DNA of 64,000 nt from Candidatus Omnitrophota bacterium (GCA_021735655.1 JAIPGM010000001.1:161728-225727), one strand, 5' to 3'; shown: positions 2 through 35,258, counted from the first letter of the stretch. A program made the numbers and translations. Notes: generated from the sequence alone by a model not told the origin.

Positions 2-1240
2 CGTCTTGATCCAGTACGGGATAAATTACTCTATGACTATCTTTTAAAGCGTTTAATGAGAGAGGGTATGATTGGAGCAGCAGTTGATTTTGAACAAATG
101 ATGCAGGCTAATTCCCTTTCGGTTAATCTTGCCCAAGTTGCGACTAGAAGATTGTTGGCCGATATAGCTATTTATCACACCGAAGAATTTGCTTTAGGAT
201 TACATCTCCAAACTAAAGGCGTGCCAACCTTTATTATGCCTCCGGCAATTAACCCTTTTAGTTATAAAAATATTCCCCTAGCTGATAATTTTATTCGGGC
301 AACTATGGTTAAATATGGTTTAGATCCCAATAAATTTACGGTTGTTGAAATATCACGTTTCGATCCTTTTAAGGGGCCGCTGGAGGCCATTCAGGCTTTT
401 GTGCGTTTATTTTTGGATAATCCGGGATTGCAGAATGATTTACAATTTGTTTATGCCGGAAATATGGCTGACGATAACCCTAAGGGAAAACGCGATTTTG
501 AAAAGATCGATGCCTATTCTCGCTATCTTAGAAAGAAATTTCCTAAACTTAGGAAAGCCTTGTTTTTGCTCGGTCTTGGGAATAAACCCGGGACAGTAGC
601 CTTAAATTGGGCCCAGAGACGCAGCTTGCGTGTTGGTGGTCAGTTTGCTCGGCCATTTTCTCGGAAAGAGATAGGTCGACTCAACGGTGTTGAGATAAAT
701 GCTCTTGAGGTTAATGCTTTACAGCAACAACTTGAGATGGAAAAAAGAGACGGTAGGTTAGTTATTTCTTTACCGCGTAAAATAGCAATACAGCCTTCAT
801 CAAAAGAAGGTTTTGGCTTAGTGGCGGCTGAGGCTACCGGAAAAGGTACTCTGGTTATCGCTTCTTTGATCGGTGGCCTTAAAGCGCAATTAAAGGATTT
901 GCTTGCGCAAGCTTCTTGGTTGGGCATTAACTATACGCCGGAGGAAATTAGTCAATCTTTAGAGGTGTATGACTCAATGGATTCTGATCAGCATAGAGGT
1001 GTTGTTTTCGATGTGGCTTATTTGGAAAGAATTAATTTATATCAACGGCTTAATCAACGAGAATTCGTTTTGGGTTTAGCTACCTCTCTGCGGGTGGCTT
1101 ACGAACTGGCTCATAAAAATCCAGATGTCTATCGAGAGCTCGGTTTAGCTGCACGTTGCCAGACTTTAGATAAGTTTATTACTCTAGCTAATGTTGAGAA
1201 CCGCTTAGCCGCCGCTTCCTTGATTGTTGATAATCAGCAG
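2..1240 (+). other. Polyprotein unit S0: C-terminal half of a GT4 glycosyltransferase, trehalose synthase (TreT)-like
   Basis: EISRFDPFKGPLEAIQAF, NMADDNPKGKRDFEKI and SSKEGFGLVAAEATGKGTLVIASLIGGLKAQL match the remembered TreT/GT4 C-terminal Rossmann motifs (SRFDPWKG; EGFGLxxxEAxxKGxPVI). The N-terminal GT domain is not in the window. Confidence 0.6.
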
Positions 1241-7200: not shown

Positions 7201-10200
7201 TTATGTGCCGATATTGCGACCCAGTAAATTTCAGCTTACTGAGCCAGCTCAAGGTCAGGAAGCTGAAATTGATCGCGAGGCGCTTTGGACCAAGGATGCT
7301 GTTTTGATGATTTCTACTAAATTCGGAATAGTTCCGGTTTCTTCAGCATTAGCCAATCTTAAGGGCGGTGAGTTCGTCAGTGGCTATGGTAAGCGCGGCA
7401 GCTTTATGATTATTCCGGCAGCCGCTCTAAATTCAAAACAGCAGCTATCTGATATAATTCCCGAGGTTCCGATTCATGTATTTCCTTCGGGATTTTTGGT
7501 GATCAATGATCAGGGCGTAATTCGTTTAAGAGGAACCTCGCATATTGACACTTCTTTAGGAGCAATTCCGATTATGGCCCGGCCAGAATCAGGCCAGTTG
7601 ATGTTAATCGATCCTTTGTTGCATCAGGTTGCCCGTACACACCCTCGCTATCGCGATCACTATCAATCAGTAGTTCAAGAAGATGGAGTGCGTTTTATTG
7701 ATGTGCCCGAGCCTGAACGTCATTTAAATCCTGCTAATTTTGGTATTCTTCCCGGTGGAGAAATATTTATGCCTTATGCGCCGCGGACTAAACAAGTTTT
7801 AATTGAGGCTGGGGTTAATGAGCAGTATATAATAATGTTACCAAGTGAATTTAATAAGTATTTACCAACCCTTCATGTTTTGGCGGGGAGTATTGGCTGT
7901 TTAGTGGCCCAAGCTTTTCATCCGGTTGAGAAGCGAGAGCCGCTCGACAATGGCCATGAAAAAGAAAAACGGCAAACTAGATCCCGAGCAATAGATATAT
8001 CAACCAAAGGTGCTGAAGATTTATTGTTTACTGAGCTTCAAACAGGGAGTTTAGTTAGTTTAGTGGTTGATGGCCTTGAGTATTGGCTTAGCCTTGACCA
8101 GGGCGATGAAGTTTGGTTTGATTTATATCGGCCTAAAGATGATATCATTGGCTATATTTATTTTCGAAATGACGCAATGCCAGCCAGAAAAATAGCCAAT
8201 TTTGGCGGCCCGAGCATTGTTCCGGCTTACCGGGGCAGGCATTTGTCGCGAGTTCTTTATTTTGTTTATTTTCGTTATCTTTGGCGCAATAATTATATCC
8301 CTGAAGAAGACTGTTTGACTATCGATGATCGATTGGCCCTAAAGCTTTATCATGAAGCTAAAAAGTTTTATTACGATCAAGACCATACCTTTACTCCGTT
8401 TCAGATTATTCCCCGAGCCGAAAAGACTAAAGCTGCAAAACCTTTAGATAATGGCCACGATATGGTTCAAAAACAATTATTTGAGTTAATTAAGCGTAAG
8501 TCAGATTCGATTAAAACTTTCTTAGAGCCGTTTGAAGCTTGCCTTGCTTACAATGGAGTGTTAGCTTTGCTGATTCGAGGAAGGCCTGACTTGAGCGTTA
8601 AATTTTTGCTTAAGAAGATTGGCTCGGCTGAGCATTGGTTTTTACTGGCTGAAACTGTTTTAGGAAATCATCAGTTTGTGGTTGATATTTCGCCGCAAGG
8701 AAAGATGTTTACCGATATTGAGGTGCTGGTTGTAGATTGTGCTGAAGCCGGAAAAATAAATTATCTATATGAAGATTATACTGTAGTTAGCGATCAAGAA
8801 ACCGAAAACTTATTGCGAGCCTTAGCAAGACAAAAAGGGATGAATGAGTTCTTGCATTTAGTTCATCAATTACCAGAAGAAAAATGGATAGGTAGGTTAC
8901 CGGATAGTGACCAGTCGATGCCACTTGATAATGGTAAATTAATCAATGAAGGTTCAGAAAGTTCTTTTTCCGATATAACTAATTCGATGCGGGTGACTTT
9001 TGTTATGCCGATGTACAATGAACAGCAACGCTTACTTCCCAAGACTTCTGATAATCCCTATGGTGAAGATGCTTTAAGGGTTAAAGTAAGTCAATTTAGA
9101 GAACTCGAGCAAGAAAATCCTAATTTCCAGTGGCGGCTAATTGCCGTAGATGACGGAACTCCCGGGTTTGCTTCAGCCAAATGCCTTGAGCAGATTTTGG
9201 CTGAGATTGATGCCCAGAATCGGGAATTTAATATCTATTCTAAAGTTTTCGTAGTGGTGATAACTGAACAAGAAAAGAAACTCCTAGGCAGCCGAAAGGG
9301 TGGAGCGGTTTTGCGTGGCTTTCAAGAGGCCCTAAGCCACGGTTGGGCTGATTATATCGGGATTACTGATACTGATATTTCCAGTAATGTTAACCAAACT
9401 AAAGATTTGATTTTGGCTCTTCGCAAAGGTGCTGGAGTAGCCATTGGTTCACGCCGCCAAAGCGGGGCCGAAGCTCGCGGCATACCGCTTTTAGGGAGAG
9501 TTAGCACAGTTATTTATAATTGGTGCATTCGTTTGATTTTGTGGCCGCTTTTTTCAATTCGTGATACCCAGCGCGGTTTTAAACTTTTTCAAAAAGAAGT
9601 AATTGTCAGAATATTACCCTATGCTCGCGATCACCATCTTTCTTTTGATACTGAACTGTTACTTTTGTCGCGTTTAGCCGGATACCAAATAGCTGAGGTG
9701 CCGATTGTCTGGATTGATTCAGCTGAGGCAACTACTTTGGTTATGTCTAAAGATGCTCCAGCGATGCTCTGGCGAGTGATTAAACAAGCCCGCCATATTT
9801 TTAATAATCCTTTTCGCGGCCAAAAGCCGCTCGATAACGGCCGAAAAATAAATCTATCAGTTAGAATGCTCAGAAAAGCTAGATTAATTACTGTTCATGT
9901 TGATGCTGGAGATTGTCCAGCCGCCTTAGCTAGCGCGATTGATAAATTAGTTTCGGGTTTAGGGCAAATCCAAGTAAGCCGTAGTAATATTGTCTTAAAC
10001 ACCGCCCATCAGAATAGCCCTATGGATATTGTTTCGTCGGTAGGCTCTCTCTCAACTGAACAGATAACAACTTTATTTCCTGAAGCTGTTTTTCTGATTG
10101 CTGGCGGCAATGTGTTTAAATGCTTAAGAAATCTAGTTGAGTCATTGGCTGTCGGCTCAGTGAACAAGCGAACTGTTAGGATTTTTGTTCTTTACGATTA

Positions 10201-13200
10201 TACCTATGGCCAAGGCTCTAATTATAGCCCTGAGCAATTAGCCGGTGAATATTATGATTATTTTAGCGATATGCTTTCAGTCTATAGTGATAGGTTTAAT
10301 CTAGCTGTATTTTATCTTGCTCAGAATCAATTCGAGCAGGAAATTTACGGTAAAAATTTATCCGGGCCCAATTTATCTTTAGCAATTATTGAAAAAGAAG
10401 CTTTAGCTAGTCAAGTACCTTTAGATAATGGGCGTAGTCTTGGGGAGTTAACTGCCGAAGGCTACAACTTAAAGTTTCTAGCCCGCAGTTCTGATTTAAG
10501 AATGACTGCCCATTGCCGAAGAGATGTAAGTTTTAATAGTTATCTTTATGATTATCGCCTGGATCCAGAGCATACTTATCGTCAAGCCCAATTAGTTCCT
10601 TTAGTTGCTCGATCGGTTAAGGAAAATGCTTTTAGAAAGTCTTCTGATTGGCAATACTTGCCGCAGCATTTGAAAGATTTATACGATTCCGGTAAAGTTT
10701 TGATGATTGCTTCCCGAGCCCAAGCTAAAGCTAAGCCTAGCCGGTATTCAGCCTTAGTAATTTCTGGCAGGACTGAGGCTTTTAGCGGCCGGATGGGTAT
10801 TTTACTCTATGACAATCGGCCGATCATTGTTTCAATTTTAGATAAGCCTTTTTTCATTGAAGCTAAAGGAATCGGGGTTGCTCAAGGAGGTTTTAGCTCA
10901 GTGCATCGGCGCTCGGGCCATAGATATGAAGTTACCGGGGCTCAGCGTTGGCAAGCTTCCTTAAAAGAATTTACCAGTTTAGAGCTTGAGCGAAAAATCA
11001 GCCGATTTTTTGGAACAGCTGATACCCCACGCGCCTTAGCGGCGATAGTCTATAAATATCCTCAAATGGATCAGTTAATTAGTGATAGCCTAACTAGCCA
11101 GGCTGAGCGAAGAGAAGCTAAAGAGCAGTTAGGCGATAGTTTAGGGATAATGTTGCGGCTTTCGCCTTCGAGCCGCCGCTTTGCTTATAATTTAGAACAG
11201 CGTCACATTAGAATGCTTGGTGAAGCTTCAGCCCGCCTGCTTTGTTCTTATCTTCCCCGAGTGCATACTTCGCCGCATTTTGAAAATCTTCTGGAGTGGG
11301 CCGAAGGCAGTGAATTCTCTTGGTCAGACTATGGAGATATTGAAGTGTTATTTGCTCAAAGTAGTTATCACTGGTCAAGGTCACTGATTAATGCCCGTCG
11401 GATATTAATGTCTTATTTGGAAACTAGTATTAGCTGGAATGTAAATTTATTAAAAAAACTGGGAATAATCGAAACCGAAGCAGAATTTATCAGCGAATAC
11501 CTAGCTGGCTTTGTTGCTTATGCTGAAACTTTAGACTGGATAACTCCTGAGGCAATCGAACGTTTAGCCCGAGTCCGCTCGCCTAAGGAGTTTGTTGACG
11601 TAATGATTTTTGAAGTATTCGCTTTAAATGCTTACAACGTGTTTAAAAAACAAACTTATGAAACTATAGTTGAAGTTAATCAGAATAATTTAGTAGAAGA
11701 ACTTTTAAGCTCGGCTTTAACTATTGCCCAGCGGCAAGAGAAAGCTCAACTTGTTGCTGAGTTAAGTGGACATATTGAAGCAGCTAAACAAGGAGAGGCT
11801 TTTTTAGGTTGTCGAATAAAAAAATCTCAAGCTAATCAAGGGGTGCTTACGCCGGTAGCTCAGCCGGTTAAAAATAGTTCTTGGGCTAATCCCTTTTTTG
11901 ATCAATTCGCTTATGATTTATGGCATGCGCTACTTTTTGATGATCATAACCTTTATGATTATGTTCAGGCTAAATGGGATTATACTGTTGGTGAAGAAGG
12001 GGCTTTTAACGTGGCCGGATTTTATCTGCTTGATGCTCATTATCTTGGGTTGTTGCGTTCGCGCACCAGCATGCATAATATACCGGAAAAATTATATATG
12101 TGTTCAGCTGGATATGAAATGACTGCTAATATCAACAAATTATTGACTGCGATTAATCGAGTTAGTTTGTGCCCTCAGGAAAATACCTTGGTGCGTTCAA
12201 CCGTACGTAACACCTTACAACATGCGATTTCCCAGCGCCTAAGTAAGTGGCGCCTGGCTCGGGCTTTAATATTAGTCGTTGAATCTAACGGCGAAGTTCT
12301 TGCCGGAGACGACAGCACTTATGTTTATATTATGGATTCTGGTCCGGGCATGCCGATTGATGCGGTAATGCAAGGCGATTGGCGAAGACATAGTACGATG
12401 TTTGGTACGGATTTAAAAGGTTTTCGTGAATATAGGGACGTTGAATGGATTCTTGATTCTTGGTCAAGCAAAGCCGGCGGACCGCAACGTTGGGATGGTC
12501 TAAGAGGGGGGCTGGTTGAGGGAGCTTTAGTACCGGACAACATGCCTTTATTTGGTACTTTATTCGGTATGCGGCTTAAGCATGGCTTAGAATCGAGTAG
12601 CAAACCTTTAGACAACGGTAGAGATTCTCGGTCAAAAGGACAAAATCTTGGTAGTTTAGGAACGGCTAATAAGGCCCCTCCGGTAAAAACTTACAATGTC
12701 GAGAGTCCTTTTAATCGGTTTTCGCTGCGCCTTTTAGATTTAATTCTAACCTTATCTTTCTTGCCTCTGATTATTCTAGCTAGCCTACCCATAGCTATAT
12801 TTGTTAAATATCAGATTTTTAAACACAAGACTGGACAGTCAGTTATTTTTAAAGAGCAGAGATTCGGCTATAAGGGTAAACCGTTTATCATGTATAAATT
12901 TCGTACTTATATCGGCGATAAAGATAATCCTAAGGCAGTTTTACTGAGCTTGCGTTGTTTGGGGCTAGATGAGTTACCGCAGTGGTGGAATATCTTAAAG
13001 GGCGATCTTTCAATTTGGGGAGTGCGCCCTAAGTTACAAGATGATCCCAGCTCTGACAGTGATTTCCAAGCACACCTGGATCAGATCAATGATTTACGCA
13101 AGCCGGGAATAATTAGTTTAGCTACGGCTGATGTGCACGCTGAGATGGAGCATGTTTCTTTTTCAGCCGAGCATCGCGATCGTCAGATCGCCTTTGATCT

Positions 13201-16200
13201 TTATGAAGCAGAGTATTGGTCATTCTTTTTAGCTTTTAAAATTGTTGTTTTGAATATCTTTGCTCAATTTAAAGAAGCAGCCAGGATTGTATTCCGAAAT
13301 AAAATTTTAGTTATTGTTGCCGTGCATATTCCGCAAGCCGAGCAGCCAAAAGCCGGCCCAATTTTAAATATTTTAGAATACTTAAGCCAAAGATTCCCTT
13401 CGAAATATTATAGTGTCTTTGTTGGTTTTCCGGATTCAGGAAATCCCAATTTAAATTTAGATTTAGCTATTCCTCAAGGCTTAACCATTGGCTTAGGTGA
13501 AGGCGATGAATACAACATAGTTAATTCTCAAGGCCTTAAACTTAAATTTAGCTGGCAGTTTGAGGGGCCAGACGATTTAAGCCAAAGAACTTTAAAAATT
13601 GGACGCCACAAGTTATTAATGCCATTGTGCGCTGAAAGTTCTCTTCCGGTATTTTCCGGAGCTAAGAAAAAAATTCCCCATAAGGCTATCTTCATTCCCT
13701 TTATTGCTTTTCGTCCATGTATTGTTACCTGTATGAATGATTTAATATTTCTCAATCTTCCGATAATTGGATTAGATACCGCTAATGGCATATTTTTGTT
13801 TGTTCCCGGCTCAACCCAGATTGATATAGTCGGTACAAACAAGCTTCTGGCCGTAGCAATTAATCATTCCGGCAGGGTGATGGGCAGTTCATTTAAAGAT
13901 TTGGACCAAGTCGTTCCTTTAGATAATGGACGTCAAACCATTTCCCACTTCCGAAGTGGGGAAGGTCAGAGCCGGACCGGCCCGACATCCCGTAATTTCC
14001 CCCTGGATAACGGCGGCCGGAATAATGAAGCTATCGAAAACAATCGGTTTTCATTCGCTAATCGTCTAGGAAAAGTTTTAGTTGCTACTGTTATCGGTGG
14101 AATTTCTTTAGGGTTATTGTATTTATTCGGCGGCCTTGATTGGTATACAAATATAAAAAATAGTATTCCTTTAGGGGCAGTGATTTTCTGGCCGGGGGCT
14201 TTCCTGGATATGGTTACCGGTGTTTTGATCTGGTTAATTTCCGATATCGTCGGTCAATATCTTAATCAGGGTAGAAGCATTCGCTATCGGCAAAGTTTTA
14301 AAGTTGGTGCTTGGGGAGTATTTCAAGGGTTGGCTACTCACATTTTGTATAATTTAGTTGAACTGCTTCCGGTTGTGCCTTTACCTTTAGCGCAAGCAAT
14401 GTTTCGAACTATTTTTACTCTTTTTGGCGGACTGACTATTAACATTTTCTATACCGTGGTTGTAGCCCGGGCTCGTAAAGCATCTAAGGCTGAAGGTTAT
14501 AGCGGCCTAAAGGAGCGCCACAAGGCTTATGATGTTATTTTTAGTAAGTTTATCGTCGCCCCAATCAAAACTTATTTTATAGTTAATCTATTACCTCCGG
14601 CAACGCGGGTTATTAGCGAGCAGGCTTGGGAATACTTAATGAAAGTTTTTGATGCTTATTTGATGAACCGTAAAGATTCACTTTTTTCTAGTTATATTCT
14701 AAATTTATTATCTAGAAAAAAACCTTTAGATAACGGCCGCTCCGGGCAGTCGGATGATCAAATAACTTTGGTTTCTGATAATCTGGTTGACTCATTTAGA
14801 AATGTTAGACAAAGGCTGGTAGTAACTGTTAGGCGCGCACAGATGTCTAGATTGGATTTTAAGCCGGGGATAGTGTCACTTCAGAATATGAGCCCAAAGG
14901 TAGATTATTTCTGCCTTTCTTCAATATCTGAACGCCAAGAAGATATCCAAGCCTATAGGCAAGTTCCTTTAGTACAGGATGGTGCTAGTTTTGGAGAAAG
15001 TTACAGTGAAAAATATCTTATTGCTCAGGAACCGGATACCTTAGTTTTAGTTGAGGGTGATGAAGGGTTGATTGCCAGTTTTGATTATTCGCTTTGTGGT
15101 TGTCTAGTCATTCGGGCTAGAAATCTTTTTGGCATGGCCCACTTAAGTCCATTTATAGATTTTTCGGATGAAGAGATGGAAATTGAAAATGATCGGATTT
15201 ATTATAAATATTTATCAGTTTTAGATTATTTCAAATTACAGGGATATAAAGATGTTCAAATTTTTCTCAGTTTGAATGAGCTGCTTCAGGGATTTAAAAC
15301 TTTAAAAGCTAGGCTTTGGTCGGCTGGTGATAGCGATGCGACTAATCGTCAGAGAGTGGTAGATCTTCTTGGGATTGAGGCTAGGCAACGCGGCATAGCT
15401 GTTGTTGATCGCCGCCTTCGACAAAAGTCTGAGGTTCTAGATGTCCTGGGTTTTCCGAGAAAAATGATTAGCCGTCAATGGCTTAATCGCGGCACAAAAC
15501 CCGAAAGTTTTGAAATAATATTTATTGAGACTAGAGATGAGTTGCCAGTAGCCATAAACTCAGAGACTCAACAACCCGAGATTGAATACTTTCAATTCGC
15601 TTGGCCTGTTGTGATACCTCTCGATAATGGCCGCCGGAAACTACCAAATGATGACTGGATTTGGGTTAATGGAGAGAGTTTGCAATTTGTTGGCCGGGAC
15701 GGTTTATTGATAACAGGAATGGAGGGCCGGGGTAAAAGTTTTTTGGCCAGAAAAATATACGATAGCGATGATAGATGGAAAGTCGTATCCTGCGGAGCTA
15801 CTCATGTATGTATAAGGAATGAATTAGCAGAAAGAGCGCTTTTAGGCAGACGTTTATCCGAAAATAATCTTTTATATTCCCGGCTGTCAGGAACAATCCC
15901 GGTAGAACTATCGTTAGATGTAGTTGTTAGGTTGAACTGGGTTATGGCCTTAGACGATCTATACCGAGAAATTTTAGGGGGATTGTTGGCCGATGCCGGG
16001 CAAAGAGAGTCTTTGGGCCTCAAAATTATAGATATGAGCGATCTAGACGTAACTCGGCAATGGCCGAAAGTGTTGAAGTTCATCAATGCGTCTATTGTGA
16101 AACCAGAGACTTACGATAAAGGAAATAGTTTATTTCAAGTCCCTCTTGATAATGGTAGACGAGCTCAAGTTGAACAGGAACGGGAATTTTTGATCCAGAC

Positions 16201-19200
16201 AATCATAAATGTTTTTAGCCAAGGTGAAGGATTATGCCTGGAGCCGGCGCAGATAGAGGCAGCTATTGCTGTAGATACATCATTTGATGAATACAGGATA
16301 GCTAGAAACTTGCCGATAGTTATTGGCCTAAAGGGTAATATTTATGAAAATTGTCCTTTGGCTAGCAAGCCTCTTCTTCTTGTGTTTACCGGCAGAGGAA
16401 GCATAACTAAACCAGAGCTTATCTTCAATGCCTACACCCAGCAAGGTTTAGTCAGAGAAGCAAGCCGTTTAAGTCGTTCGATGGAAACTAAAAATGCAAT
16501 TTGGGAGATACCTTATCATGGCAAGAAGACGGCTTTCATATTGGAAGATAAAAATAACTGGATTGCTTTGGCGGCAGTTTATGGTCCTGAAGATATTTAC
16601 CAACAAGGACTATTGATCTGTAAGGGTGGAGATAGGATAACCAGGTTAGGTACAGAAATTTCTCAAGCCGCTGGTGAGGCAGATGAGGAAGCTATATTTT
16701 CTGATTATTCCCGGGCCTTAGTGGTTGCTCGTCTTTTAGGATTTTCTATCCTTGATGGTCCAGATATGATGCGCCGGGTTAACCGGCGGATGAGCGCTAT
16801 GATCGCGGCAGCAAAAGAGACTGTGGCCGATATCAATGAGTTTGCTAAGGCATACCCTGGTTATGAGGCTGTTGATACACATCACATACTTAAACCTACT
16901 ACCAGTAATCCGGTGGAAGAGGGAGGTTTCCCGCACACTGAATGGATGGTGACTAGTCGAGGGGTTGTTCAGGGGACGGTTACTGCTTTGCGTTGGCTTA
17001 GACAGGTTCTTGACGTTGGAGAGAATAGGTACCCTGAGGAAGTGGTAAGATTTGTTAAAAATTTGAATATATTTGGAAGTCCGATGAGCTATATTGTCCA
17101 AGGCTTTGGTGATGTTGGCAGCGGCATCACTAAGCTTTTTTTGACTATTTTTAAGATTTTTGGGTTTCAGGCCAGGGGTTTTAATAACCGTTACTTTGCA
17201 ATTTATCGCCGCGAAGGATTACCTAAACCATTTTTAGTTGAGGCGCGGGAGATCGTTGAAGTTTCTCCTGATGCTTTAGATCTAGGGAGATTACTGGCAA
17301 TGAAGAGTTTTGATGACCAATTACAGGGGGCGGTGGTTTGGATAGCTAATCCAATTAACCCGAAAACTAAAGAGCCAGTATTTGGTCCTGCTGATGTGGA
17401 CAGAGTAAATCAAGCTCTTGCTGAAAGAGGTGTTACTGCTATTTGGGGTGATCAGACAGTAGTAAATGAACTAATTTATCAAAAGGCAACCGTGCTTTTT
17501 CTGGCTGCAACCGCTAATGTTATTAGTGAACTTTCTCAGGTTGAAAGATTGCAGGTTAAGATTATTTCTGAGGGAGCTAATAATGCAGTTAAACCTGAGT
17601 TAAGAGAGCCTTTAAGAAAAGCTAATGTATTTTATATTCCTGGTGAGCTTCTTAACGGCGGGGGCATATATGCTTCTAAGGAAGATATTCGGCATAACCA
17701 TACCGATGGATCAGAATTAATAAGGCAACATCGGCAATACTATTATATACATGTAACTGATGAGATCGACACATTGGCTCTTCACCGAATGATTTCTTTC
17801 CTTGAGATTTGGGCTGAGTCAGCAGGAAATTTTTCTTTTGATTTAACCGTCCATGTAGAAAAAGTTGCCGGCCGGATTTTTGAAGCAGCTGATAATTTGG
17901 TAAGAACCAATAATACACGTTTGAGAAAATTTACCCAAATTGATCAAAAGAGAACCTTTGATCATCAAGCCGGCCGGCCGACTTTGCCTTGGCGTCATAG
18001 TCTTTATGAAATTGCCATTGAAATGGCACCAATGGGAATACTTTATCATTTGCGGGATGTCGGTAGACACTTATCTTTACTTAATAGATTTAAGGTTGCA
18101 ATAAAGGAAGATGGTCAGATAGATAATTATCATATATGTCGTCTGCGTTTTGCTTTATTTGAGTTGACCAAGCTAGGCTATTATTTAAAAAGTAACCAGC
18201 GCAGAAGGTTAATCGGCCTTCTTCCTGGAATAATTACCGATGAAAAGTGTGATGGCCTATTAAGGAAAGATGCCATGTTTTGTTTGGCAATGGCAATTAG
18301 GTGGCAGGAAGAAGAATCCTGTAAATCTGAGGTAGATCGGGCAAGAAAATTATATTTAGGCATATTACAAAATCCCCTTGAAAGTGCTCAGCTGCATACC
18401 TGGGCTCAGCATTGTCTCTATAGGATTTTCGGAGAAAATTACTTCCGGCGGATAAGCGCTGATTTTGATCGCTTAAACGGAGTTAACTTACCCAAGCCGC
18501 TTGATAACGGTCGGGATAGTTCGGTCGGGATTACCTCAGAACCGTTAAGAATTTTAGCCGAGCTAATTTCGAATAGTTATCGGACTAAGGCTTTAGTAGA
18601 ATTTTTGCAGCCTTTCTTAGATTGTGAATCTGTTAATTATTTACAAGAAGAGATAGCAAAGCATTGCCAGCTACCGGCCTGGGGTGTTGTTTCTTCTAGC
18701 CATTATCTTGATGAAGGGTATTTCTATTATGGTTTAAAATCCGGTATTGATCGCTGTCTCGAAAGAGGAGTTATGGTTGAGAATGACGGTAACAGATTAT
18801 ACGTTACTAAAGATTCAGAGGATACCGTAAAATATAGCGGCCTTGACGAAACTCAAGAAAACCAGTGGGGAATTTTTATTTTTCCAAGCGAGTATTTCAA
18901 TCAGGCTATCAATTGCGGTTATGCCGAGGCCGGCTTAAGGCTTTCACATAACCGCTTAGGCATAACTACTTATCCATACTTCAAAAGTTCTTTATCGCTT
19001 GCGCCGGCACGCTTTCTGATAATTGATAGATCTAAGGCAGATGAACATAGGCACCTGGAAGGCCAGCCGAAGCTAAAAGATAAACTTCAAGCCTTGACCG
19101 AAGCAGGATTGAAGGTTCTATGGTTGCCGGATTCTTCCGGCCCATTCTTTGACCCTGATTTCCAATATGCTTTCGGGGAGTTGTTGTTTAGTAATGATAT

Positions 19201-22200
19201 TCCGGAAACCAATCGCTTTCTTTTTTATCCGTCCGCAGATACTCAAGATCTTACAAAAATCATCTGGTGGGTTTTACAGTCGTTAAGAATGAGTAGTATA
19301 AAAAATCGGCTATTACATAATATGGAGTTAGCTCGGCAATTTAAAAAAATCGGCCCCTTTGATAATGGGCGAGCTGATTTTACAACAGCAGACGAACAGA
19401 TCGGTAATCTTTTTGCTGAGGCAGTTATTACAGGAGATAATGTTTTAATTGAGACTCATTGGGATGCTGTAGCGGCTAAGAGAGGCGGCAGTTTGAATAT
19501 TTTAGAACATGCTGGCTTAAGGATTACAAGAAGTTTAGCTTTAGGAATTGTACCGCGGGCTGGTGAATGGCCGGATAGGGTTGAAACCGATCAAATCATT
19601 CTGAGTTCATCTCGCTATGGTTGGATCGATTCTGAAAGAGATATTGAGCATTTGTTAAGCGGCTTTGATCAAGCCAGATTGCTTAATTCGTTTAATCTTG
19701 GCCATTATTATCAGGGTTGTCACTATCGAAGTTTCCTAAGCTGGCTAGCGGTTTTAAAGAGTAGTCATTTCCCGGCAGTTATTTTTCATTTCATAGGTGA
19801 GCTAATTAATTCTTGGGGTATTAAGCCAGCTGCTAAGAGTGATTTTCCAGTTTTGGCCAGTCGAAGGGATATCTTTTCTTTCGTTAGCGTGCCTTATGTT
19901 TCAGATATAGAAAAATTAGATTTGCCAGTTGCAGTGTTTTTTGATGGTAAGCTTAGTTCGCTTAGGCGTGGCGATAGCCGGAAACAGCCAACTTTAATAT
20001 TAGCTTATTGGCAAGCTTTGAATGGTTTTATTGGTTTTAAAGAACAGATAGCTAGGGAAACAGCAGAATTTCAGAATACCCCTTTAGATAATGGCCGCAA
20101 AGAGCATGACATCTCTGATAGTACGGTAATCCAATGGCCGCTTAATGTAATTGTTAAAGATATGCGCGGTTTATCCAAAGGCGAGATATTAGCTGTTGTT
20201 AAAACCGGTAAAATATTTTGGGGAAGGGAAATAGTAGGAGCTATTTTTTCTGACCGCAATATTGTTTTTGGTAAAGTGGTCGATGATAAGTTTATAGTAT
20301 TTGATGATTGGTTAATTGAAAGAATTCCTGGAGGATTGTTAGAGGGGTTGCGGAGAAGCATTTTATTTTTGCCTTATTTAGGAAGTATTTTAAGAAACAA
20401 GACATCGTCAATAAATAAACCCCTGGATAATGGCAAGAAATATAATTATCGGCAAGTCCTAGAGATGGTTGACTGTTTTGATAGTGCAAGGTTAGAGGCT
20501 CACTTATTTAGAGCTCTTGGCAGAGTTGAGACTGAAGCCGTATCTATAGCTGGTGATATTATTAGGGCGGCTAGAAAATTTGAACGGATAACTAAAGCAG
20601 TAAAATCTCTTTATAGGAAAACTTACGGCAAGCTACCTAATTTTACTCTTGCTTTCGATCCTTCCGGTCAAGGTATGTATGGGGCGTATCAGGAGGATGA
20701 TACAGCCGGATTTTTTGATCATATTGGCGTAGCTCCAGAAGATGTGCTGCTTGAGGTAGGCAGCGGCGATGGAAGCATTTCGGATTTCATGGCCCATATG
20801 TTTGGGATTAAGGCAACTGGGATTGAGGTTTGGGAGCCATATTATCATTACGCAGTTTTCTTAAGAGATGAAGCAGTAAGAAGAAGATTCATTCCAGAAG
20901 GTAAAGTAGATTTTTTAAATAATAATTTAGTAGATGTTGATTTTTCAAAGTATTCTTTAGTGTACTACGCTGCTCTTGGCACAAGAAGAAAAAGTGAGCT
21001 GGCTGCTAGATTGCTTGGGGTAAGAGAAAAATCCAGGATATTAATTCGGGGTTCACCTGATGAGTTAGTGGAAGGGATTATCGCATCACATCCTGATTTT
21101 AGCTTAAGGAAGCTTGAGATAGAAGTTAATGAAAACCTTACTGGAATTAAGGCAAGGGTTTATACTCGAGAGACAATTACCAGTTACCAGCCGGTTCTCG
21201 ACGTTCCTCTAGATAATGGCCGAAAAAATAACCCTCAGATGGTCAGAGCGCGCTTAGCCGCATTTGAAAAATCAATCGAGGGCATCGTGCCTAGGGCAGA
21301 TCCGCTTTATGACCATTTAATTCGTTTTTATCAATATCCTTTGAATAATTTGGGTGAACCTGACGAAGAGACCTATGTAAGGAATAATACCAAGGAGCAG
21401 GAGCGGGAGCTTCTTAGATTCTGGGCCGGCCATTTCGGCCTTCCTAAAAATTACGGCGGTCATGTGACTATCGGAATCGGTCAGGCTGAATATTATGCCA
21501 TGTACGTGGCTAGCAATCGATTTCCCAAGGCTATATTTTATATTTCTAATCAGGTCGATAGCCTTCTTTATGATACTTTACAGGTGTTGGGCATTGATCA
21601 AGGAAGAATAAAGTTAATTAGGTCTTTAGAGAATGGCGAGATCGACTATGGTGATTTAAAGAGAAAGATTAGGGAGAATTCATCATGGCCGGCGGTGGTC
21701 TGCTTGACTGCTGGCAGATTCCTGGGGGCGGTTGATGATTTAGGAAAAGTGGAAGGAATTTTAGGGAGCCTGGGCCTAAAGCATAAACATATTCATTGCA
21801 GCATGTCACCGTTAAGTATAGGCCAGTCGTTTTTGGAAGATGCGGCAAAGATAGATTTTCAACATGGCTTAGATAGCATGAGTCTACCGTTGTATCATTT
21901 TGTAAGGTGTCCGATGCCAGGAGTCATCGTTCTTACCAGAAGGAAATACCTTCAGAACATTGCTTGTAGTCAAAAAGCAGCTGAGTATGTTAACTCTAAC
22001 GACACCACTAATTCTGGATCACGTAGTGGTCATGCTCCGCTTTATCTTTGGTTTGCTACAAAAGTTATTGGGACTAAAGGATTTAAGGCTCAGGCTGAGC
22101 GGGCCAGGGAAGTTTGTGTTTCTATTAAAGCTCTATTTGACCGTTACGGTTATCCTTGCCGGTTCACCGCGCAAAAAAATACAATAATCTTTGAGCCACC

Positions 22201-25200
22201 ATTTTATGAGTTGCGTCAAAAATGGGGCTTATTATCACACGGGCAATGGTCCTGTTTTGAGATTGTACCTTATTTGACCCCGGTTGAGATAGCCGAATTT
22301 GTAAGTGATCTTTTAGGTGATCATTCTCAAGCGGTAGCCGCCCCGGTAGAAACCGTATTTCCGGAACGGATTGTCTATGAACCGTCTCCGGAAGTCTTAG
22401 ATGTTTTGGATCAATTAGAAGCAAGGATCCAAATTTTGATGGAAAGATTTTTAGGATTTCCGGCAAATATCGCCGGCAATGAGACATCTTTTGCTGCCTT
22501 GAGCAGCTTGTTTAAATACACCTTGAGAAAAAAGGATGTGGAAGGTTTTCGACACGAAGCCTTGAAATTTTTTACTGATCTTTACGGTTTAAGGTACGAA
22601 GATTTTTACTGCGGCATAACTGCTGGAGGAACCTGGGGAAATCGGGTTGGCCTATTAGTTGGCCGGGAAAATTTTCCCGGCGGGATACTTTATTACAGTC
22701 AGGATTCGCACTACTCGATTGATAAAGTGGCCAGGAGCCTTAACATGGAAGTAAGAAAGGTCGCCTCTTTGTCTAACGGCCAAATTGATTATGATGAATT
22801 AGCCGAAGCCATAGAGGAAAATCGTGGCCGCCCGGTAATTGTAAATCTTAACATCGGCACAACTATGAAAGGCGCTATCGATAATCCCCAAAGAGTTATT
22901 GAAATATTAAGAGAACAGGATGTTACTGATTACTATATCCATTGTGATGCCGCGCTTTTTGGTATGATTTTACCGTTTCTCGAGGCTGCGCCAAAAATTG
23001 ATCTGGCTAACGGCGTCCATAGTATTGCCATATCCGGACATAAATTTCTCGGCCTACCGATGCCTTCGGGCATATTCATGGTTCGGAAAAATTGTGCTAG
23101 GGATAGATTGATAACTATTTCGGATCGATTATTGACTGCCCAAACTGGCCATGTCATTTTGTATTTTTGGCAGGCTGTTGCTAGCCGAGGGTATGAGGGT
23201 TGCAGAGAAGAAGCTATGGCTTGTGTGGATAATGCCCAATATCTTTATTACAGATTACAGGAAAGGGGATTGCCTTCGGAGGTAAACCCTTTTTCCAATA
23301 TAACAATGTTTTCCCGGCCATCGGGTAGCCTAATTGACACTTGGCAGTTAGCGCCTTGCGGGGACCGCGTCCACGTAGTGGCCATGCAGCATGTTACCAG
23401 AGATAAGATTGATGCTTTTGTCCAAGAGTTAACTAGGGATATGCAGCAAGGGCAGATAGAACTAGCTAGTTCTATGCAGCCTCTTGATAATGGTAGACGG
23501 CGCAAAGCATCGCTAGTGCCAGAGGTAGGCCTTGATGAATTAGTTGAAAAACATTTAGGAAACTTGAAGTTGATATCTTCTGAGTATGGAAAAAGCGTAG
23601 GCATGTTATCTACTATTTTAAGACGACCAGACAATGAGAGCCTTCAACAAAGAGCAGAGGAGTTGAGGAAGATTGGTCCTGGCCGTCTGGCCTTAGCAGC
23701 TGACTTAGGCGAATTCGGAGTAGATAGTTTGAAAATTGGTCAGAAGTATGGCGTTGGCCGAAGAACAGCGGCTAGTTGGCTTGTTAATAATGGATTTGGC
23801 GATAGGGTTAATAGCGCTAGATATAGTCGAAGTAGAACATTAAGACGTCAAAAAATAGCTCAGGAATATGAGCCGATTGCTCGCTTATTAGATGGTGAAG
23901 GCAATCTTTTACAGACATTTTATACCCATATTTCTTGGAAAGAGGTATCTGCTTATCCTTTCGCTGTTTTAGATGAATTAGAAATCCAAGCTACCGAAGT
24001 TTTAAGTTATGGTGGTAAGCAATGGGGTCAGTTTAAGGGGCATGCTGGCCATAGAGCTCGGATAACATTGGAGTGGGGCTATCCAATAGAAGTTGCTATG
24101 TCTAGCAAAAGAGGAGTTGATCAAGGTAGCTATAGAGCCATGCAGCTTAGGACCTATCAGTCAACTCTTTTTGATAGAGAGGGGGAACTCTTAGATACTG
24201 CTTTTTTCGTTTTTGGTTACGATGAAGATTTATGTCGGGGAACAACAAAAGTTGTTAACTATCAATTAACCAAGGCTGGAAGAATTAGTATTTTTGGTGA
24301 TGAACAAATACAGCTAATAAAACATAAACAAGCCTGGGCTAATTTAGTTGCAGTGGATGGAAAGGTGGTCAGGGCTACCATTCTTGATAGAGAGGGCGGG
24401 AATGAGGTTATTACTTATAATTTTTCTCGAGTGTATGATGAAAACAACCGAGTAATTTACACTTTTACTGGAGGTTTAGAGTTTAAGCAAAGCAGTGTGC
24501 CGCCTGCGTTGTTGAAATCTTTAGCTAGAGGAAGAATTGAAGGTATTTACCTAAAAGGTGGTCGTGGCAACTTAACTATTGGCGGCAGAACTTGGGTTGT
24601 TTTAAGTGACTATAAAAATTATCCATGTAGGGCTTATATTGAAGAAGGGCTTGTGGTCAGAGTAGAGGTTTTAGGTGAAGAAGGAGAGGCTGTTTTTACC
24701 AAGCATTCTCACCGCCTTTATGATAGAGAAGATAACTTTGTCGAAGTATTTTATGATTCTATTTCACCAGAGCGACTTAACCAGGTTGGTTTGTGTCGTA
24801 GCAGTCCACTTATTGTGACTCCTTCAGGAGAGTTATGCTTATCTGGAAATCGTTATACTTTTGAAAATGAAGGCGGCTCTAAGGCTATTGTTTGGATTGA
24901 ACCCGGAGTTAAGTTCACCAGAAATAGAAAGCCGGATGGTAAAGCAGTTAGAATTGATTTTTATGATCAATATATGCATTATAAGCATACCCGTTATGCA
25001 GTCAGAATCTATGAAGATGAAGGAGTTTTAATTGATACTTTTTTTGGTCCAGGATATGCTGAGAAGCTAAAGATTTTTGGTGATGTAATTGGCTTTGCTC
25101 AACTCGATACGTTAGGTTCTCTTAATATTGGCTACACAACCCATACCTTTACTAAATATGGTGACCCTCGACATTTTGTTAGATTTAGTCTACACCAGGC

Positions 25201-28200
25201 TCAAGTTCTGGATGTAGATGTTCTTGGCCATGACTATTGTCATATCGATAGAGTTGGCTTTGACGCTTGGCCTGATATGGCTATCGATCACTTTGAAATG
25301 GCCCGAATTGTTGATGAGCAGGATCAGCTATTACACACTTTTTGGTACGGTGTTTATTCAGAACGGATTCCCAATAGAGGTAGAGCTAGAATTTTAGGGG
25401 CGACTTTTACTGCCGGAGGTCACCTGCGACTTGGTAACGAAGATGTTTATCATGATGCGAACTTTCCCGAAGCTAGAGTAAATGTTACTTATATTGACGG
25501 AGAAGTAAGTGAGATATTAATTTATCAGGATGCTCAAGGCAACTCAGTAAATTATCATTATACTAAAAAGCAGATAGATAATTATAAGCGCAGAGTGCAA
25601 TATTATAATCTGCGCGGTCATGTATTCGAGCATGCTTTAAGAGTTGCCTTACCTTTTTTAAGCGACTGCCCTTTTGATTATCAAAAGCGCATTGGTGGTG
25701 AAGTTGATGGGTGGGTTGATGGTGAAGCTGAACCAAAGCCAGCTGATTCCAGATCACTTAAACGTCCAGATTTTACTAGTCCTTTTAGCTGGGCAATGAG
25801 TGAAGGGGTATTGTGCTATATTGATGCTAAATTCAATCTTAGAATTAAGTTTTTAATAGAATATCTAGAGGCAATTAAAGAGACTTTAAGAACTGATTAT
25901 TTTACTGATTGTGATGCCCCAGTTGAAACACATTTTGTAGGAAGAGTTATATTTGAGATAGTTTATTTAGGCAGAGTAAGTGAAGCTAATGTAGAGGCAA
26001 AGTTAGCTGGTCATCAGAGAAATTTTTCAGCTACCAATTCTGAGATGCTCACCTTGAAACCAGTTAGCTTTCTTGATGAGTACGGAGATAGGCTTAAGAC
26101 CGCTGGTCAGGATACTTTAGTAAGGTTTCTGAGACATCTGAGAGTTTTTCATTATAAGCCAGGTCGCAAGAAAGCCTTAGATAGCTATTTAGCCCAATTA
26201 GAACAGGATAAAATTCCCGAGATAGCCGATGAGCAGACTAATCTTTTTTCAAGGCCGCTGGATAATGGCCGAGAAAGATTATTGGTTAGTAGCGGTAATA
26301 GTCATTTAAAAAGTTTTCGTGAGGCGAAAGGTTTATTAGCAAAATTAAAATGTACAGACATTTTTGGGGTTGTCATGGGTTATCGCGCTGCCTTAGCTGA
26401 TAGAGATAATTATCAGAGAGTATTTGCTCGTGATTCTGTTTGGATGGGGTTAGCCGAAATGCTTTCCGGCTGTAAAGGTAGTTTAGCTTTAACATTAAGC
26501 GTATTAAAACATCATCAATGTCGGTACGGACAGAGACGCGGGGCTATTCCGAGTAACATTTCAAGGTATCATCGGGTAAGTTATGGGACAACTAGCCCAA
26601 GAATTGATCCAACCCTTCTTTATATTGTTAGTTCTGGCCAATATTATCGGTCCAGACCAGCCTATTTTCAAAAACAGTTTCTCGTTGAAAATTTATCGCC
26701 GCTACAAAAAGCTATAGCATATTTAGAAAGACAATGGGTTATGGATAACGGTTTATTGTTTATTCCGATTGCCGGAGATTGGGCTGATGAATATTTTCAA
26801 CAAGGCCTTGTTTTGTATGATGAAGTTTTATGGTATATGGCACTTTCAGAGTATGCCTACCTTTTAGCTGAAGATAATAATTCTAATTCAGAAGTTTATC
26901 AAGCTAAGGCTGCTTGGGTAAAGAATATAGTCAGATCCAAATTTTGGATAAATAAAAATCCCGGTCAAGGCAATTTGGGGCATTTCCGTCATTTTTTCAA
27001 TCAATTACAAAGCCCGAATCAGGCAGCGACATTTGGCTGTCCCTATGATAGCTTTGATGCTTTTGGTAATATTTTGGCAATTCTTTCCGGCGTGGCTACA
27101 GAGGAGCAAACTGCTCAGATAATTAAATATATTGATGTAATTTCAGAAAATAATCAGCCATTACTGGTGCCGGCACATTATCCGGCAGAAGAAGTTGAAC
27201 ATTTTGTTCACACAGGTGCTCCGTATCGGTATCAATTTAAGAATAATCCCGGGTGTTATCATAATGCTGGTTTATGGTCATGGTATACAGGTTTATATGT
27301 TGCGGCATTAGTGAAAGCCGGCCGATTAGACCGGGCGGCTAAATTTTTAGAAGGGGTACAGCTAGCCAATGAAGCTAAGGACTCAAATGGCCGGGGGTAT
27401 CATGAGTACCATACTAATATTCCCGGTCAATTGAGTAGGCCGGGTGGAGTTAGCAATTTAGGTGTCAGCGCTGCTGGTTATATAATAGCTCACCAAGCAT
27501 TTTTTAAAAATAAGATTGTTTTTGGTCAGAATCATCCTTTAGACAACGGCCGTCAGATGCCTGATTATTTTTCTCCGGTTGGAGACGTCAATGTAACTCT
27601 TAATAGTTCTTCAGAAAAAGCCCCCCTTGATAACGGAAGAAATTATTCCAGTTCGCCAATATTTCAAGAGACAACCTTTACCTATTGGTTAAGAGTGAGT
27701 TTATATTTATTAAGATTTTTGCTTAGTGCACCTTATTATTTTATTATTACTTTAGTTGTATCAAGAATGATGAAAGGAAAAAACATTTTATTTGTATCTT
27801 ACCGTATTAATGAATTTGCTTTAGATGGAGTATCTTTAGAAATAAAAGAGTGGCGAAATCTTTTATATCGATTGGGCGCACATATTTTTCTATTTTCTGG
27901 TCATAGCAAAATTGTTCAGGATGGAAGTATCACCGGTCAGGCTCCGGATTGCATTGAGAGTGATTTTCTTGCTGAACAGGCAACAAAAATAAGAGAGAAG
28001 ATTGAAAGAGAGGGAAAGCTAGATGCTGAAGATTTTGAATTAATTCATAGAGCAAAAGAGATAATTAAACGCAATCTGCGTAAGTGTATCTTGGAAAATA
28101 ATATTCACTACATTGTTTCGGAAAATGTATTTTGTCTACCGGGAAACCTCGCTCTTGCCGAGGCACTTATAGAACTTGCCGAAGAGTTTCCTCGGTTAGG

Positions 28201-32036: not shown

Positions 32037-32064
32037 AACGATAAGTTAAGATTGAACAATAAAG

Positions 32065-33159: not shown

Positions 33160-33174
33160 CTTTTTAATTTTAAT

Positions 33175-34140: not shown

Positions 34141-34146
34141 TAGACT

Positions 34147-35115: not shown

Positions 35116-35187
35116 AACCGCGCCTTTTTCAGGACTTTTCTTTTTATTCTATTGATTTTTTTCCTTCGCTATTGATTTGTAATTTGG

Positions 35188-35215
35188 TTGGAATTCATTG
35201 AATTTAATGTATAAT
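35188..35215 (+). promoter_or_regulatory. Candidate sigma70-type promoter (TTGGAA-16 nt-TATAAT) in the only sizeable intergenic gap
   Basis: TTGGAA at 35188-35193 and TATAAT at 35210-35215, inside the 143-nt AT-rich gap 35116-35258 upstream of the glycan/rSAM cluster. Pattern match only. Confidence 0.3.
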
Positions 35216-35258
35216 AATTAAGATAATATCAATAAGGCTTTCTAAAGGGGCCTTTGTC

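What the first reader, a model, noticed from the sequence alone, without database searches (positions are those of the whole stretch)
21221..23479. Tandem histidine-decarboxylase-like PLP enzyme in which the first copy has lost the PLP lysine
Seen in sequence: the second copy keeps HSIAISGHKFLGLPMPSGIFMVRK (Lys codon 23042-23044), HCDAALFG and NIGTTMKGAIDN. The paralogous first copy has DSMSLPLYHFVRCPMPGVIVLTRR at the same place (about 21871-21920), so no Schiff-base lysine. Established knowledge: group II decarboxylases are obligate dimers with active sites at the interface. Inference: this is a fused pseudo-dimer with one dead and one live subunit. No PLDNG separates the copies, which shows that the junction motif marks protein units and not every domain boundary.
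Basis: partly seen in the sequence, partly recalled or inferred. Interest (0 to 1): 0.5.

Follow-up and report, generated by a model that had tools for sequence, protein, structure and literature searches.

The report
Fused one-site PLP decarboxylase pseudo-dimer
Two diverged copies of a histidine/serine-decarboxylase-type enzyme are fused in one chain: the second copy keeps every cofactor-binding residue, and the first keeps only the parts a partner subunit normally lends, so one shared active site is likely.

Summary
Nt 21221-23479 is one unit of 753 aa, bounded by PLDNG motifs, inside a 9751-aa ORF of an Omnitrophota-like genome. It holds two full-length HDC/SerDC-type group II PLP decarboxylase copies. 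They are 25% identical (E 4e-29).

Copy 2 keeps the Schiff-base Lys (codon 23042-23044), the Asp that pairs with the pyridine N, the stacking His and the phosphate loop. Copy 1 has lost all of these; His sits at the Lys position.

Copy 1 keeps the catalytic-loop Tyr and the GSR Ser. In solved SerDC/AlaDC structures these act in the neighbouring subunit's site. Copy 1 also keeps the NNxGDP segment. Copy 2 has lost all three.

The same pattern holds in all seven tandem relatives found, down to about 30% identity. Copy 1 is as conserved as copy 2. AlphaFold models (pTM 0.85 and 0.77) superpose as whole chains on single-chain glycine decarboxylase P-protein, which has the same dead-N, live-C layout.

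Verdict: an intramolecular pseudo-heterodimer with one composite active site. It is a new variant of a known kind. The substrate is unknown.

The parts
56..29311 (+). Context: one 9751-aa ORF made of about 28 enzyme-sized units separated by PLDNG motifs. The decarboxylase is one of these units.
21206..21220 (+). Upstream PLDNG junction motif.
21221..22315 (+). Copy 1 (unit residues 1-365). It is a full-length HDC/SerDC-like fold that has lost every cis PLP-binding residue.
   Evidence: NF002748 193 bits, E 5e-57. PDB 8jij E 7e-40. Motif table.
21341..21361 (+). Copy 1 LNNLGEP, the family's NNxGDP segment. It is retained here and deleted in copy 2.
21791..21817 (+). Copy 1 IHCSMSPLS, in place of IHCDAALFG. 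The Asp that pairs with the PLP pyridine N is replaced by Ser.
   Evidence: Residue role from PMC11407765.
21881..21901 (+). Copy 1 SLPLYHF, in place of SGHKF. His226 (unit numbering) sits at the Schiff-base Lys position.
21977..22039 (+). Copy 1 catalytic loop AAEYVNSNDTTNSGSRSGHAP, with Tyr256 and Ser267. These are the equivalents of CsAlaDC Tyr336* and Ser347*, which act in the adjacent subunit's site.
   Evidence: Low pLDDT at 249-267 in the model, as expected of a mobile loop.
22316..22387 (+). Inter-copy linker (unit residues 366-389). It has no PLDNG and carries a conserved Y-x-P-S.
22388..23479 (+). Copy 2 (unit residues 390-753). It has a complete PLP-binding set but lacks the trans-acting elements.
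   Evidence: PF00282 E 6e-23. NF002748 315 bits, cutoff 305. PDB 8jg7 E 2.5e-72.
22451..22468 (+). Copy 2 LGFPAN, the YPX substrate-pocket motif. X is Ala here.
   Evidence: Motif role from PMC11407765.
22619..22642 (+). Copy 2 TAGGTWGN, the phosphate-binding loop. Trp472 replaces the usually invariant Glu.
22697..22717 (+). Copy 2 SQDSHYS. His497 stacks on the PLP ring.
22844..22885 (+). Copy 2 NLNIGTTMKGAIDN. The Thr contacts PLP O3.
22937..22963 (+). Copy 2 IHCDAALFG. Asp576 pairs with the pyridine N1.
23027..23047 (+). Copy 2 AISGHKF. Lys608 is the Schiff-base lysine (codon 23042-23044).
23090..23155 (+). Copy 2 degenerate loop NCARDRLITISDRLLTAQTGHV. It has no Tyr and no GSR.
23480..23494 (+). 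Downstream PLDNG junction motif.

Best explanation
The unit is a single-chain pseudo-heterodimer of a group II (HDC/SerDC-type) PLP-dependent amino-acid decarboxylase.

The two copies most likely pack against each other within one chain, as the two subunits of an ordinary homodimer do. An ordinary dimer has two active sites at the interface; here only one survives.

- Copy 2 binds PLP through Lys608, Asp576, His497, the GGT loop and the GTT motif. It also provides the YPX substrate-pocket motif.
- Copy 1 cannot bind PLP. It reaches across the interface with its mobile catalytic loop. Tyr256 would be the proton donor to the quinonoid carbanion, and Ser267 would bind the PLP phosphate.
- By inference, copy 1 also contributes its NNLGEP segment.
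- The reciprocal site would need copy 1's PLP pocket and copy 2's loop. Both sides of it have degenerated.

**Shown:** homology of both halves, the residue pattern, its conservation across a deep family, and equal constraint on both halves.

**Inferred:** intramolecular packing (AlphaFold only), catalytic activity, and one PLP per chain.

**Unknown:** the substrate. The nearest relatives decarboxylate Ser, Ala or His.
For: 1. Both halves are full-length HDC/SerDC homologues. They match each other at E 4e-29.

2. Residue roles come from the CsAlaDC/AtSerDC structures (PMC11407765). The cis residues are His196, Thr247, Asp277, His308, Lys309 and Gly169/Thr170. Ser347* and Tyr336* come from the adjacent subunit, and Y336F is inactive.

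3. In 7 tandem proteins every cis motif is kept in copy 2 (7/7) and lost in copy 1 (7/7). For the trans elements:
   - GSR is kept in copy 1 in 7/7.
   - The loop Tyr is kept in copy 1 in 6/7.
   - NNxGDP is kept in copy 1 in 6/6.
   - All three are lost in copy 2 in 7/7.

4. Copy 1 is as conserved as copy 2 among the Omnitrophota relatives: 57-61% against 61-63% identity.

5. The copy 1 sequences form one clade in 200/200 bootstraps. The copy 2 sequences form one clade in the best tree, with parallel branching. This points to one old fusion kept under selection.

6. The AlphaFold model has pTM 0.85 and pLDDT 80.8. Its only long low-confidence stretch inside a domain is copy 1's catalytic loop.

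7. The whole chain superposes on single-chain P-proteins 4lhc/9uz6/6i35 with TMq 0.69-0.71, against 0.42-0.45 for single-domain hits. The 34%-identical relative P0014 repeats this: pTM 0.77, TMq 0.60-0.67.

8. In human GLDC the N-half has the same fold as the C-half but carries Gln at the Lys position. PLP sits on Lys754 in the C-half (PMC7259800).
Against: - No experimental data exist.
- The tools return no model coordinates, so the Tyr256-to-Lys608 distance could not be measured.
- AlphaFold may pack any two linked homologous fold-type I domains as the dimer it has learned. The two models also share one 7-sequence alignment, so the geometry evidence is weaker than the pTM suggests.
- One family member (P0016) lacks the loop Tyr in copy 1.
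- All copy 2 sequences replace the otherwise invariant Glu of GGTEGN with Trp or Phe, so altered chemistry cannot be excluded.
- The trans role of NNxGDP rests on my recollection of the equivalent Ile101'/Phe103' segment of DOPA decarboxylase and on the retention pattern. No cited structure supports it.
Confidence: 0.8

Rival explanations
1. Copy 1 is only a structural scaffold or a decaying relic. It stabilises copy 2 but contributes nothing to catalysis. Copy 2 either works with an incomplete site or pairs with copy 2 of another chain.
For: Copy 1 gets no Pfam hit. It has lost all PLP-binding residues.
Against: Copy 1 is as conserved as copy 2. Its best-kept family motifs are exactly the trans-acting Tyr loop, GSR and NNxGDP, in relatives down to about 30% identity. 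Copy 2 lacks the catalytic Tyr that SerDC/AlaDC need (Y336F is inactive; PMC11407765). A copy 2 homodimer would therefore have no proton donor.
Confidence: 0.07
2. The composite site is the same, but pairing is intermolecular. Copy 1 of one chain pairs with copy 2 of another in a domain-swapped dimer or chain. An alternative route is an unrecognised cleavage in the linker followed by heterodimer assembly.
For: Group II decarboxylases are obligate dimers. P-proteins form dimers of pseudo-dimers (PMC7259800). The linker of about 24 residues is flexible in the model.
Against: AlphaFold places the halves together within one chain, with pTM 0.85 and 0.77. Linker length is conserved and carries a Y-x-P-S motif. 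No PLDNG-like motif occurs between the copies in any of the 7 proteins. Stand-alone ORFs of 759 and 762 aa encode exactly the tandem.
Confidence: 0.1
3. Copy 1's former PLP pocket has become a regulatory or second catalytic ligand site. A similar idea was proposed for the N-terminal half of GLDC.
For: The pocket-lining segments are conserved among the four Omnitrophota sequences, for example DSM(S/T/A)LP and IH(C/Y)(S/N)MSP. PMC7259800 speculates about PLP binding in the GLDC N-half.
Against: Across the whole tandem family the residues at the Lys, Asp, His and GGT positions are not conserved. The Lys position carries H, R, R, S, A, E and E.
Confidence: 0.08
4. The tandem is an assembly or duplication artefact.
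For: One database protein, P0017, carries an exact internal repeat with Lys in both copies.
Against: The two copies here are only 25% identical. The same dead-live layout recurs in independent assemblies. These are three GTDB Omnitrophota MAGs, a JGI metagenome, a TARA scaffold, a Logan assembly and a Caligus transcriptome.
Confidence: 0.01

Closest known systems
Bacterial PLP-dependent histidine decarboxylase and plant serine/alanine decarboxylases (PDB 7eru/7erv, 8jg7, 8jij; NCBIfam NF002748; Pfam PF00282)
   Different: Those enzymes are homodimers of one chain of about 370-420 aa with two equivalent sites. Here two diverged copies are fused and each keeps only half of the functional residues. 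Glu of GGTEGN is Trp. The YPX position is Ala. The plant zinc finger was not examined. The substrate is unknown.
Single-chain glycine decarboxylase P-protein (GcvP/GLDC; PDB 4lhc, 9uz6, 6i35)
   Same: The architecture matches. The N-terminal fold-type I half lacks the PLP lysine and the C-terminal half carries it. The two halves form an intramolecular pseudo-dimer with one site. Whole-chain superposition gives TMq 0.69-0.71 (PMC7259800).
   Different: There is no detectable sequence relationship: 11-13% identity in the structural alignment and no GDC-P Pfam hit. P-protein is about 950 aa and works with lipoyl-H-protein. This looks like an independent, convergent origin from an HDC/SerDC ancestor.
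Serine palmitoyltransferase LCB1/LCB2 and the natural single-chain SPT of coccolithoviruses
   Same: A fold-type I PLP enzyme in which a lysine-less paralogue partners a lysine-bearing one. The viral form is a natural fusion of the two (PMC5371807). That LCB1 lacks the lysine is from my own knowledge.
   Different: It belongs to a different PLP subfamily, the alpha-oxoamine synthases, with different chemistry. No comparison was run here.

Membership tests
[quoted passage not shown] | Significant full-length sequence and fold homology | tested here: met
   Copy 2: PF00282 E 6e-23, NF002748 315 bits (cutoff 305). Copy 1: NF002748 193 bits, E 5e-57, below the cutoff, and no Pfam hit. Both match PDB 8jg7/8jij/7eru.
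[quoted passage not shown] | Schiff-base Lys in the S-x-H-K motif | tested here: met
   Copy 2 has Lys608 in AISGHKF. Copy 1 does not meet this feature (PLYHF, with His at the position).
[quoted passage not shown] | Asp to the pyridine N1, stacking His, Gly-Thr phosphate loop, Thr to O3 | tested here: met
   All are present in copy 2 (D576, H497, GGT 469-471, GTT). All are absent in copy 1 (roles from PMC11407765).
[quoted passage not shown] | Catalytic-loop Tyr and phosphate-binding Ser supplied by the partner subunit | tested here: met
   Present only in copy 1 (Y256, S267). Absent in copy 2.
[quoted passage not shown] | Dimer with active sites at the interface | tested here: inconclusive
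   Models with pTM 0.85 and 0.77 match the P-protein pseudo-dimer as whole chains. No coordinates or experiment were available.
[quoted passage not shown] | Decarboxylase activity and substrate (His, Ser or Ala) | not testable with these tools
   The YPX specificity position is Ala (FPA). It is Tyr in AtSerDC and Phe in CsAlaDC.
Glycine decarboxylase P-protein (GcvP/GLDC) | Sequence membership (GDC-P Pfam family) | tested here: not met
   No GDC-P hit in the Pfam scan. Identity is 11-13% in the structural alignments.
Glycine decarboxylase P-protein (GcvP/GLDC) | Lys-less N-half plus Lys-bearing C-half forming an intrachain pseudo-dimer | tested here: met
   Motif table. Whole-chain TMq 0.69-0.71 and 0.60-0.67. 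GLDC description in PMC7259800. This is a resemblance in how it works, not family membership.

The most novel reading that the evidence does not exclude
This may be the first natural single-chain, single-active-site member of the group II amino-acid decarboxylases. It would have arisen independently of glycine decarboxylase P-protein, yet converged on the same dead-N/live-C layout by reciprocal loss of cis and trans active-site elements.

The family is small, old and mostly Omnitrophota. In at least three species it sits inside giant ORFs: the 9751-aa ORF here and frames open across the whole of two 22-kb loci in relatives. There, fusion would guarantee 1:1 stoichiometry of the two halves after any processing.
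Probability: 0.6. Interest if true: 0.55.

Novelty: new variant of a known kind. Interest (0 to 1): 0.45.

Why it matters
It is a clean natural example of subfunctionalisation inside an obligate homodimer. After duplication and fusion, each copy kept only the residues it contributes to one of the two interface sites.

This gives a ready-made single-site group II decarboxylase. Such an enzyme could be used to study the trans-acting catalytic loop and half-of-sites behaviour without making mixed heterodimers. The layout also recurs independently of the one seen in glycine decarboxylase P-protein.

For annotation, databases label these proteins simply 'histidine decarboxylase'. That label hides both the architecture and the unknown substrate.

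The finding also helps in reading the surrounding giant ORF. The PLDNG motif delimits whole proteins, including multi-domain ones.

Tried and rejected
- **AFDB search.** Foldseek against afdb50, meant to find other fused decarboxylases, was not available on the machine.
- **Model coordinates.** They are not exposed, so loop-to-PLP distances could not be measured.
- **Literature.** Searches for PLDNG and for tandem or pseudo-dimer PLP decarboxylases found nothing relevant. A P-protein paper searched for 'pseudo' was uninformative.
- **Shared methyltransferase neighbour.** I tested whether the methyltransferase-like unit upstream (20435-21205) is homologous to the one following the decarboxylase in P0003. 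Only the SAM motif I matches, E 0.08, which is not significant.
- **P0017.** This 615-aa protein has 4 matched stretches, but it carries an exact internal repeat with Lys in both copies. It is probably a misassembly and not a family member.
- **Origin of copy 1.** Whether it arose by duplication of copy 2's ancestor or from a separate paralogue could not be resolved. The two copies together form a clade in 1/200 bootstraps, which may be long-branch noise.
- **First tree script.** It timed out and was redone with a faster distance calculation.
Full report
**What is there.** The window holds one open reading frame from nt 56 to 29311, 9751 aa long. It is divided by 27 exact PLDNG motifs and 2 near copies. 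The codons at the motif vary synonymously, so selection acts on the peptide rather than on a DNA repeat. The finding covers one inter-motif unit, nt 21221-23479 (753 aa). PLDNG flanks it at 21206 and 23480, and none lies inside it.

**Both halves are decarboxylase homologues.** Copy 2 (nt 22331-23479) matches Pfam Pyridoxal_deC at E 6e-23. It also matches the NCBIfam histidine decarboxylase model NF002748 at 315 bits, just above the cutoff of 305. Copy 1 (nt 21221-22330) gets no Pfam hit, but it matches NF002748 end to end at 193 bits, E 5e-57. The two halves align with each other over 350 residues at 25% identity, E 4e-29. The best solved relatives of both are plant serine and alanine decarboxylases (8jg7, 8jij) and Photobacterium histidine decarboxylase (7eru, 7erv). 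Copy 2 matches these at E 2.5e-72 and copy 1 at E 7e-40. Neither is met. The lysine position is His in copy 1 (SGHKF against PLYHF), and the nearest lysine is 17 residues away.

**The losses are complementary.** Residue roles come from the CsAlaDC and AtSerDC crystal structures (PMC11407765).
- Within one subunit, PLP is held by a stacking His, an Asp on N1, a Thr on O3, the His-Lys pair and a Gly-Thr phosphate loop.
- The adjacent subunit supplies Ser347* to the phosphate.
- The adjacent subunit also supplies the mobile catalytic loop carrying Tyr336*. The Y336F mutant is inactive.

Mapping these onto the unit gives the following pattern.
- Copy 2 has all the same-subunit residues: GGTWGN, SHYS with H497, GTT, D576 and K608. 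It also has the YPX pocket motif, here FPA.
- Copy 1 has none of them. Its equivalents are GIGQAE, VDSL, GRF, Ser for the Asp, and His for the Lys.
- Copy 1 keeps the loop AAEYVNSNDTTNSGSRSGH, with Tyr256 and Ser267. It also keeps NNLGEP, the family's NNxGDP segment.
- Copy 2 has DRLITISDRLLTAQTGH, with no Tyr and no GSR. It has also deleted the NNxGDP segment.

Each copy has therefore kept exactly what it would give to one and the same interface site. The trans role of NNxGDP is my inference. It rests on the retention pattern and on my recollection of the equivalent Ile101'/Phe103' segment of DOPA decarboxylase.

**The architecture is a conserved family, not an accident.**
- A word-indexed search found three tandem relatives at 59-62% identity, labelled Omnitrophota or 'histidine decarboxylase'.
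- An exhaustive HMMER scan of 1.84 billion cluster representatives added three distant ones. These are P0014 (759 aa, TARA metagenome), P0015 (1028 aa) and P0016 (762 aa, from a Caligus rogercresseyi transcriptome). Apart from these and the probable artefact P0017, the rest of the best 150 hits match only the copy 2 half of the query.
- A scan of 185,579 GTDB species genomes found 24 loci. Only three have a tandem-length match, and all three are Omnitrophota MAGs.
- In all 7 tandem proteins the cis motifs are kept in copy 2 and lost in copy 1. In copy 1, GSR is kept in 7/7, the loop Tyr in 6/7 and NNxGDP in 6/6. All three are lost in copy 2 in 7/7.
- Among the Omnitrophota sequences copy 1 is as conserved as copy 2: 57-61% against 61-63% identity.
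- In a neighbour-joining tree the copy 1 sequences form a clade in 200/200 bootstraps. The copy 2 sequences form a clade in the best tree (90/200), with parallel branching order.

Together this points to one old fusion maintained by selection.

**Geometry.** AlphaFold2 was run without templates on a 7-sequence alignment. It gave mean pLDDT 80.8 and pTM 0.85 for the 753-aa unit. The only long low-confidence stretch inside a domain is residues 249-267, which is copy 1's catalytic loop. The same loop is disordered in the CsAlaDC crystal.

Foldseek against the PDB gave single-domain SerDC and HDC hits with TM-score per query length of 0.42-0.45, which means half the chain. Single-chain glycine decarboxylase P-proteins (4lhc, 9uz6, 6i35) gave 0.69-0.71 over about 880 columns. 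That value requires both halves to superpose at once and in the same order. A model of the 34%-identical relative P0014 repeated this, with pTM 0.77, P-protein TMq 0.60-0.67 and single-domain TMq 0.37-0.43.

In human GLDC the N-terminal half has the same fold as the C-terminal half but carries Gln where the lysine should be. PLP sits on Lys754 in the C-half (PMC7259800). The predicted arrangement here is therefore the known P-protein pseudo-dimer, reached from an unrelated sequence family (11-13% identity, no GDC-P Pfam hit).

**Most likely mechanism.** The unit is a single chain folding as a pseudo-heterodimer with one composite active site. PLP sits on Lys608 of copy 2, and copy 1's loop closes over it. 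Tyr256 protonates the carbanion after decarboxylation, and Ser267 binds the phosphate. I put this at about 0.8.

The rivals are less likely.
- A purely structural or decaying copy 1 is contradicted by its conservation and by copy 2's lack of the essential Tyr.
- Intermolecular domain swapping or a hidden cleavage in the linker cannot be excluded, but nothing favours either.
- A new ligand site in copy 1's old pocket is unlikely, because the pocket residues vary across the family.
- An assembly artefact is excluded by the independent occurrences.

The substrate is unknown. The NF002748 score is borderline and the nearest structures are Ser/Ala decarboxylases. The specificity position of the YPX motif is Ala here. 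The normally invariant Glu of GGTEGN is Trp or Phe in every copy 2 of the family.

**The PLDNG remark.** This fits the data.
- The same tandem exists as stand-alone ORFs of 759 and 762 aa, and as a stand-alone 1213-aa gene in one Omnitrophota MAG.
- No xLDNG motif lies between the copies in any relative.
- In the related polyprotein L006 a junction-like SADNG sits at the same distance upstream of NNLGEP as PLDNG does here.
- Other units of this ORF are also multi-domain.

**Novelty and score.** Fused or paired dead-live PLP enzymes are known. Examples are the P-protein and serine palmitoyltransferase LCB1/LCB2, including a natural viral fusion. I found no report of one in the group II amino-acid decarboxylases, and databases label these proteins plain histidine decarboxylase. 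I rate it a new variant of a known kind, with interest 0.45. It is a tidy and testable case of reciprocal degeneration, but it does not surprise in principle. The surrounding PLDNG-punctuated giant ORF is the more unusual object, and it is recorded under things noticed in passing.

Noticed in passing
window 56-29311 (+): One 9751-aa ORF strings together about 28 enzyme-sized units separated by PLDNG followed by R/K/H/Q/G. There are 27 exact copies, plus PLNNG at nt 5807 and PFDNG at nt 19355. Codons at the motif vary synonymously, so the peptide is under selection. Units hit ordinary single-enzyme Pfam families (GT4, GH77, GT2, Bac_transf, ELFV_dehydrog, a methyltransferase, GH100), but most have no Pfam hit. 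It looks like a bacterial polyprotein with a repeated processing site. Asn-Gly is a classic succinimide-prone dipeptide. The giant-gene preprint 10.1101/2023.11.21.568195 says cleavage points in Omnitrophota giant proteins are unknown.
   Followed up: partly
L006 (JBDRAN010000035.1) and L007 (JBAYES010000009.1), whole loci: In two other Omnitrophota MAGs the same tandem decarboxylase lies in a frame that stays open across the entire 22-kb locus (more than 7400 aa). L006 junctions read SSP..S(L/A)DNG..SSP, at L006 nt 7589, 8492, 9968 and 13661. L007 shows no obvious xLDNG motif, so the junction sequence differs between species.
   Followed up: partly
window 2534-2569, 13916-14014, 27536-27637: Some PLDNG motifs are nearly back to back. 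One pair is 2 residues apart, and others enclose units of only 23-24 aa. If PLDNG is a cleavage site, these would release very short peptides.
   Followed up: no
window 22628-22630 (Trp472 of the unit): The Glu of the GGTEGN loop is listed among 13 residues invariant across the group II decarboxylases compared in PMC11407765. It is Trp or Phe in copy 2 of all 7 tandem proteins (GGTWGN, GGSWGN, SGSFSN). The role of this change is unknown.
   Followed up: no
window 22373-22387 (linker VYEPS): A Y-x-P-S motif in the inter-copy linker is shared by 5 of the 7 tandem proteins; P0016 has IYLLS at the same place and P0015 has the region deleted.
   Followed up: no
L002 1231-5664 and L003 1386-5819: In the JGI metagenome contigs the tandem decarboxylase gene (P0001) overlaps the end of a 1477-aa ORF by 23 nt, in another frame. 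That ORF carries a Pfam Intein_splicing hit and has no xDNG motifs.
   Followed up: partly
P0016 / P0162 / P0163: A 762-aa tandem family member comes from the sea louse Caligus rogercresseyi transcriptome. A 197-aa fragment is annotated on a 35.8-Mb genome contig of the same animal. It could be a symbiont, contamination or horizontal transfer. This copy 1 lacks the loop Tyr.
   Followed up: no
P0017: A 615-aa HDC-like protein has an exact internal repeat: the same 60-mer occurs at residues 101 and 407. Both copies keep the Lys. It is probably a misassembly and not part of the dead-live family.
   Followed up: yes
window 29352-36566 and 40797-47014: Directly downstream of the giant ORF lie an Opp/Dpp-type peptide ABC transporter (29352-35115) and a flavin amine oxidase (35259-36566). 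Two large radical SAM/SPASM proteins follow at 40797-47014. An amine oxidase near an amino-acid decarboxylase might hint at amine metabolism, but no link was tested.
   Followed up: no
window 20435-21205; P0003 residues ~740-840: A Rossmann methyltransferase-like unit lies next to the tandem decarboxylase in both this window (upstream) and L006/P0003 (downstream). The two share only SAM motif I (E 0.08), so conserved linkage is not established.
   Followed up: partly
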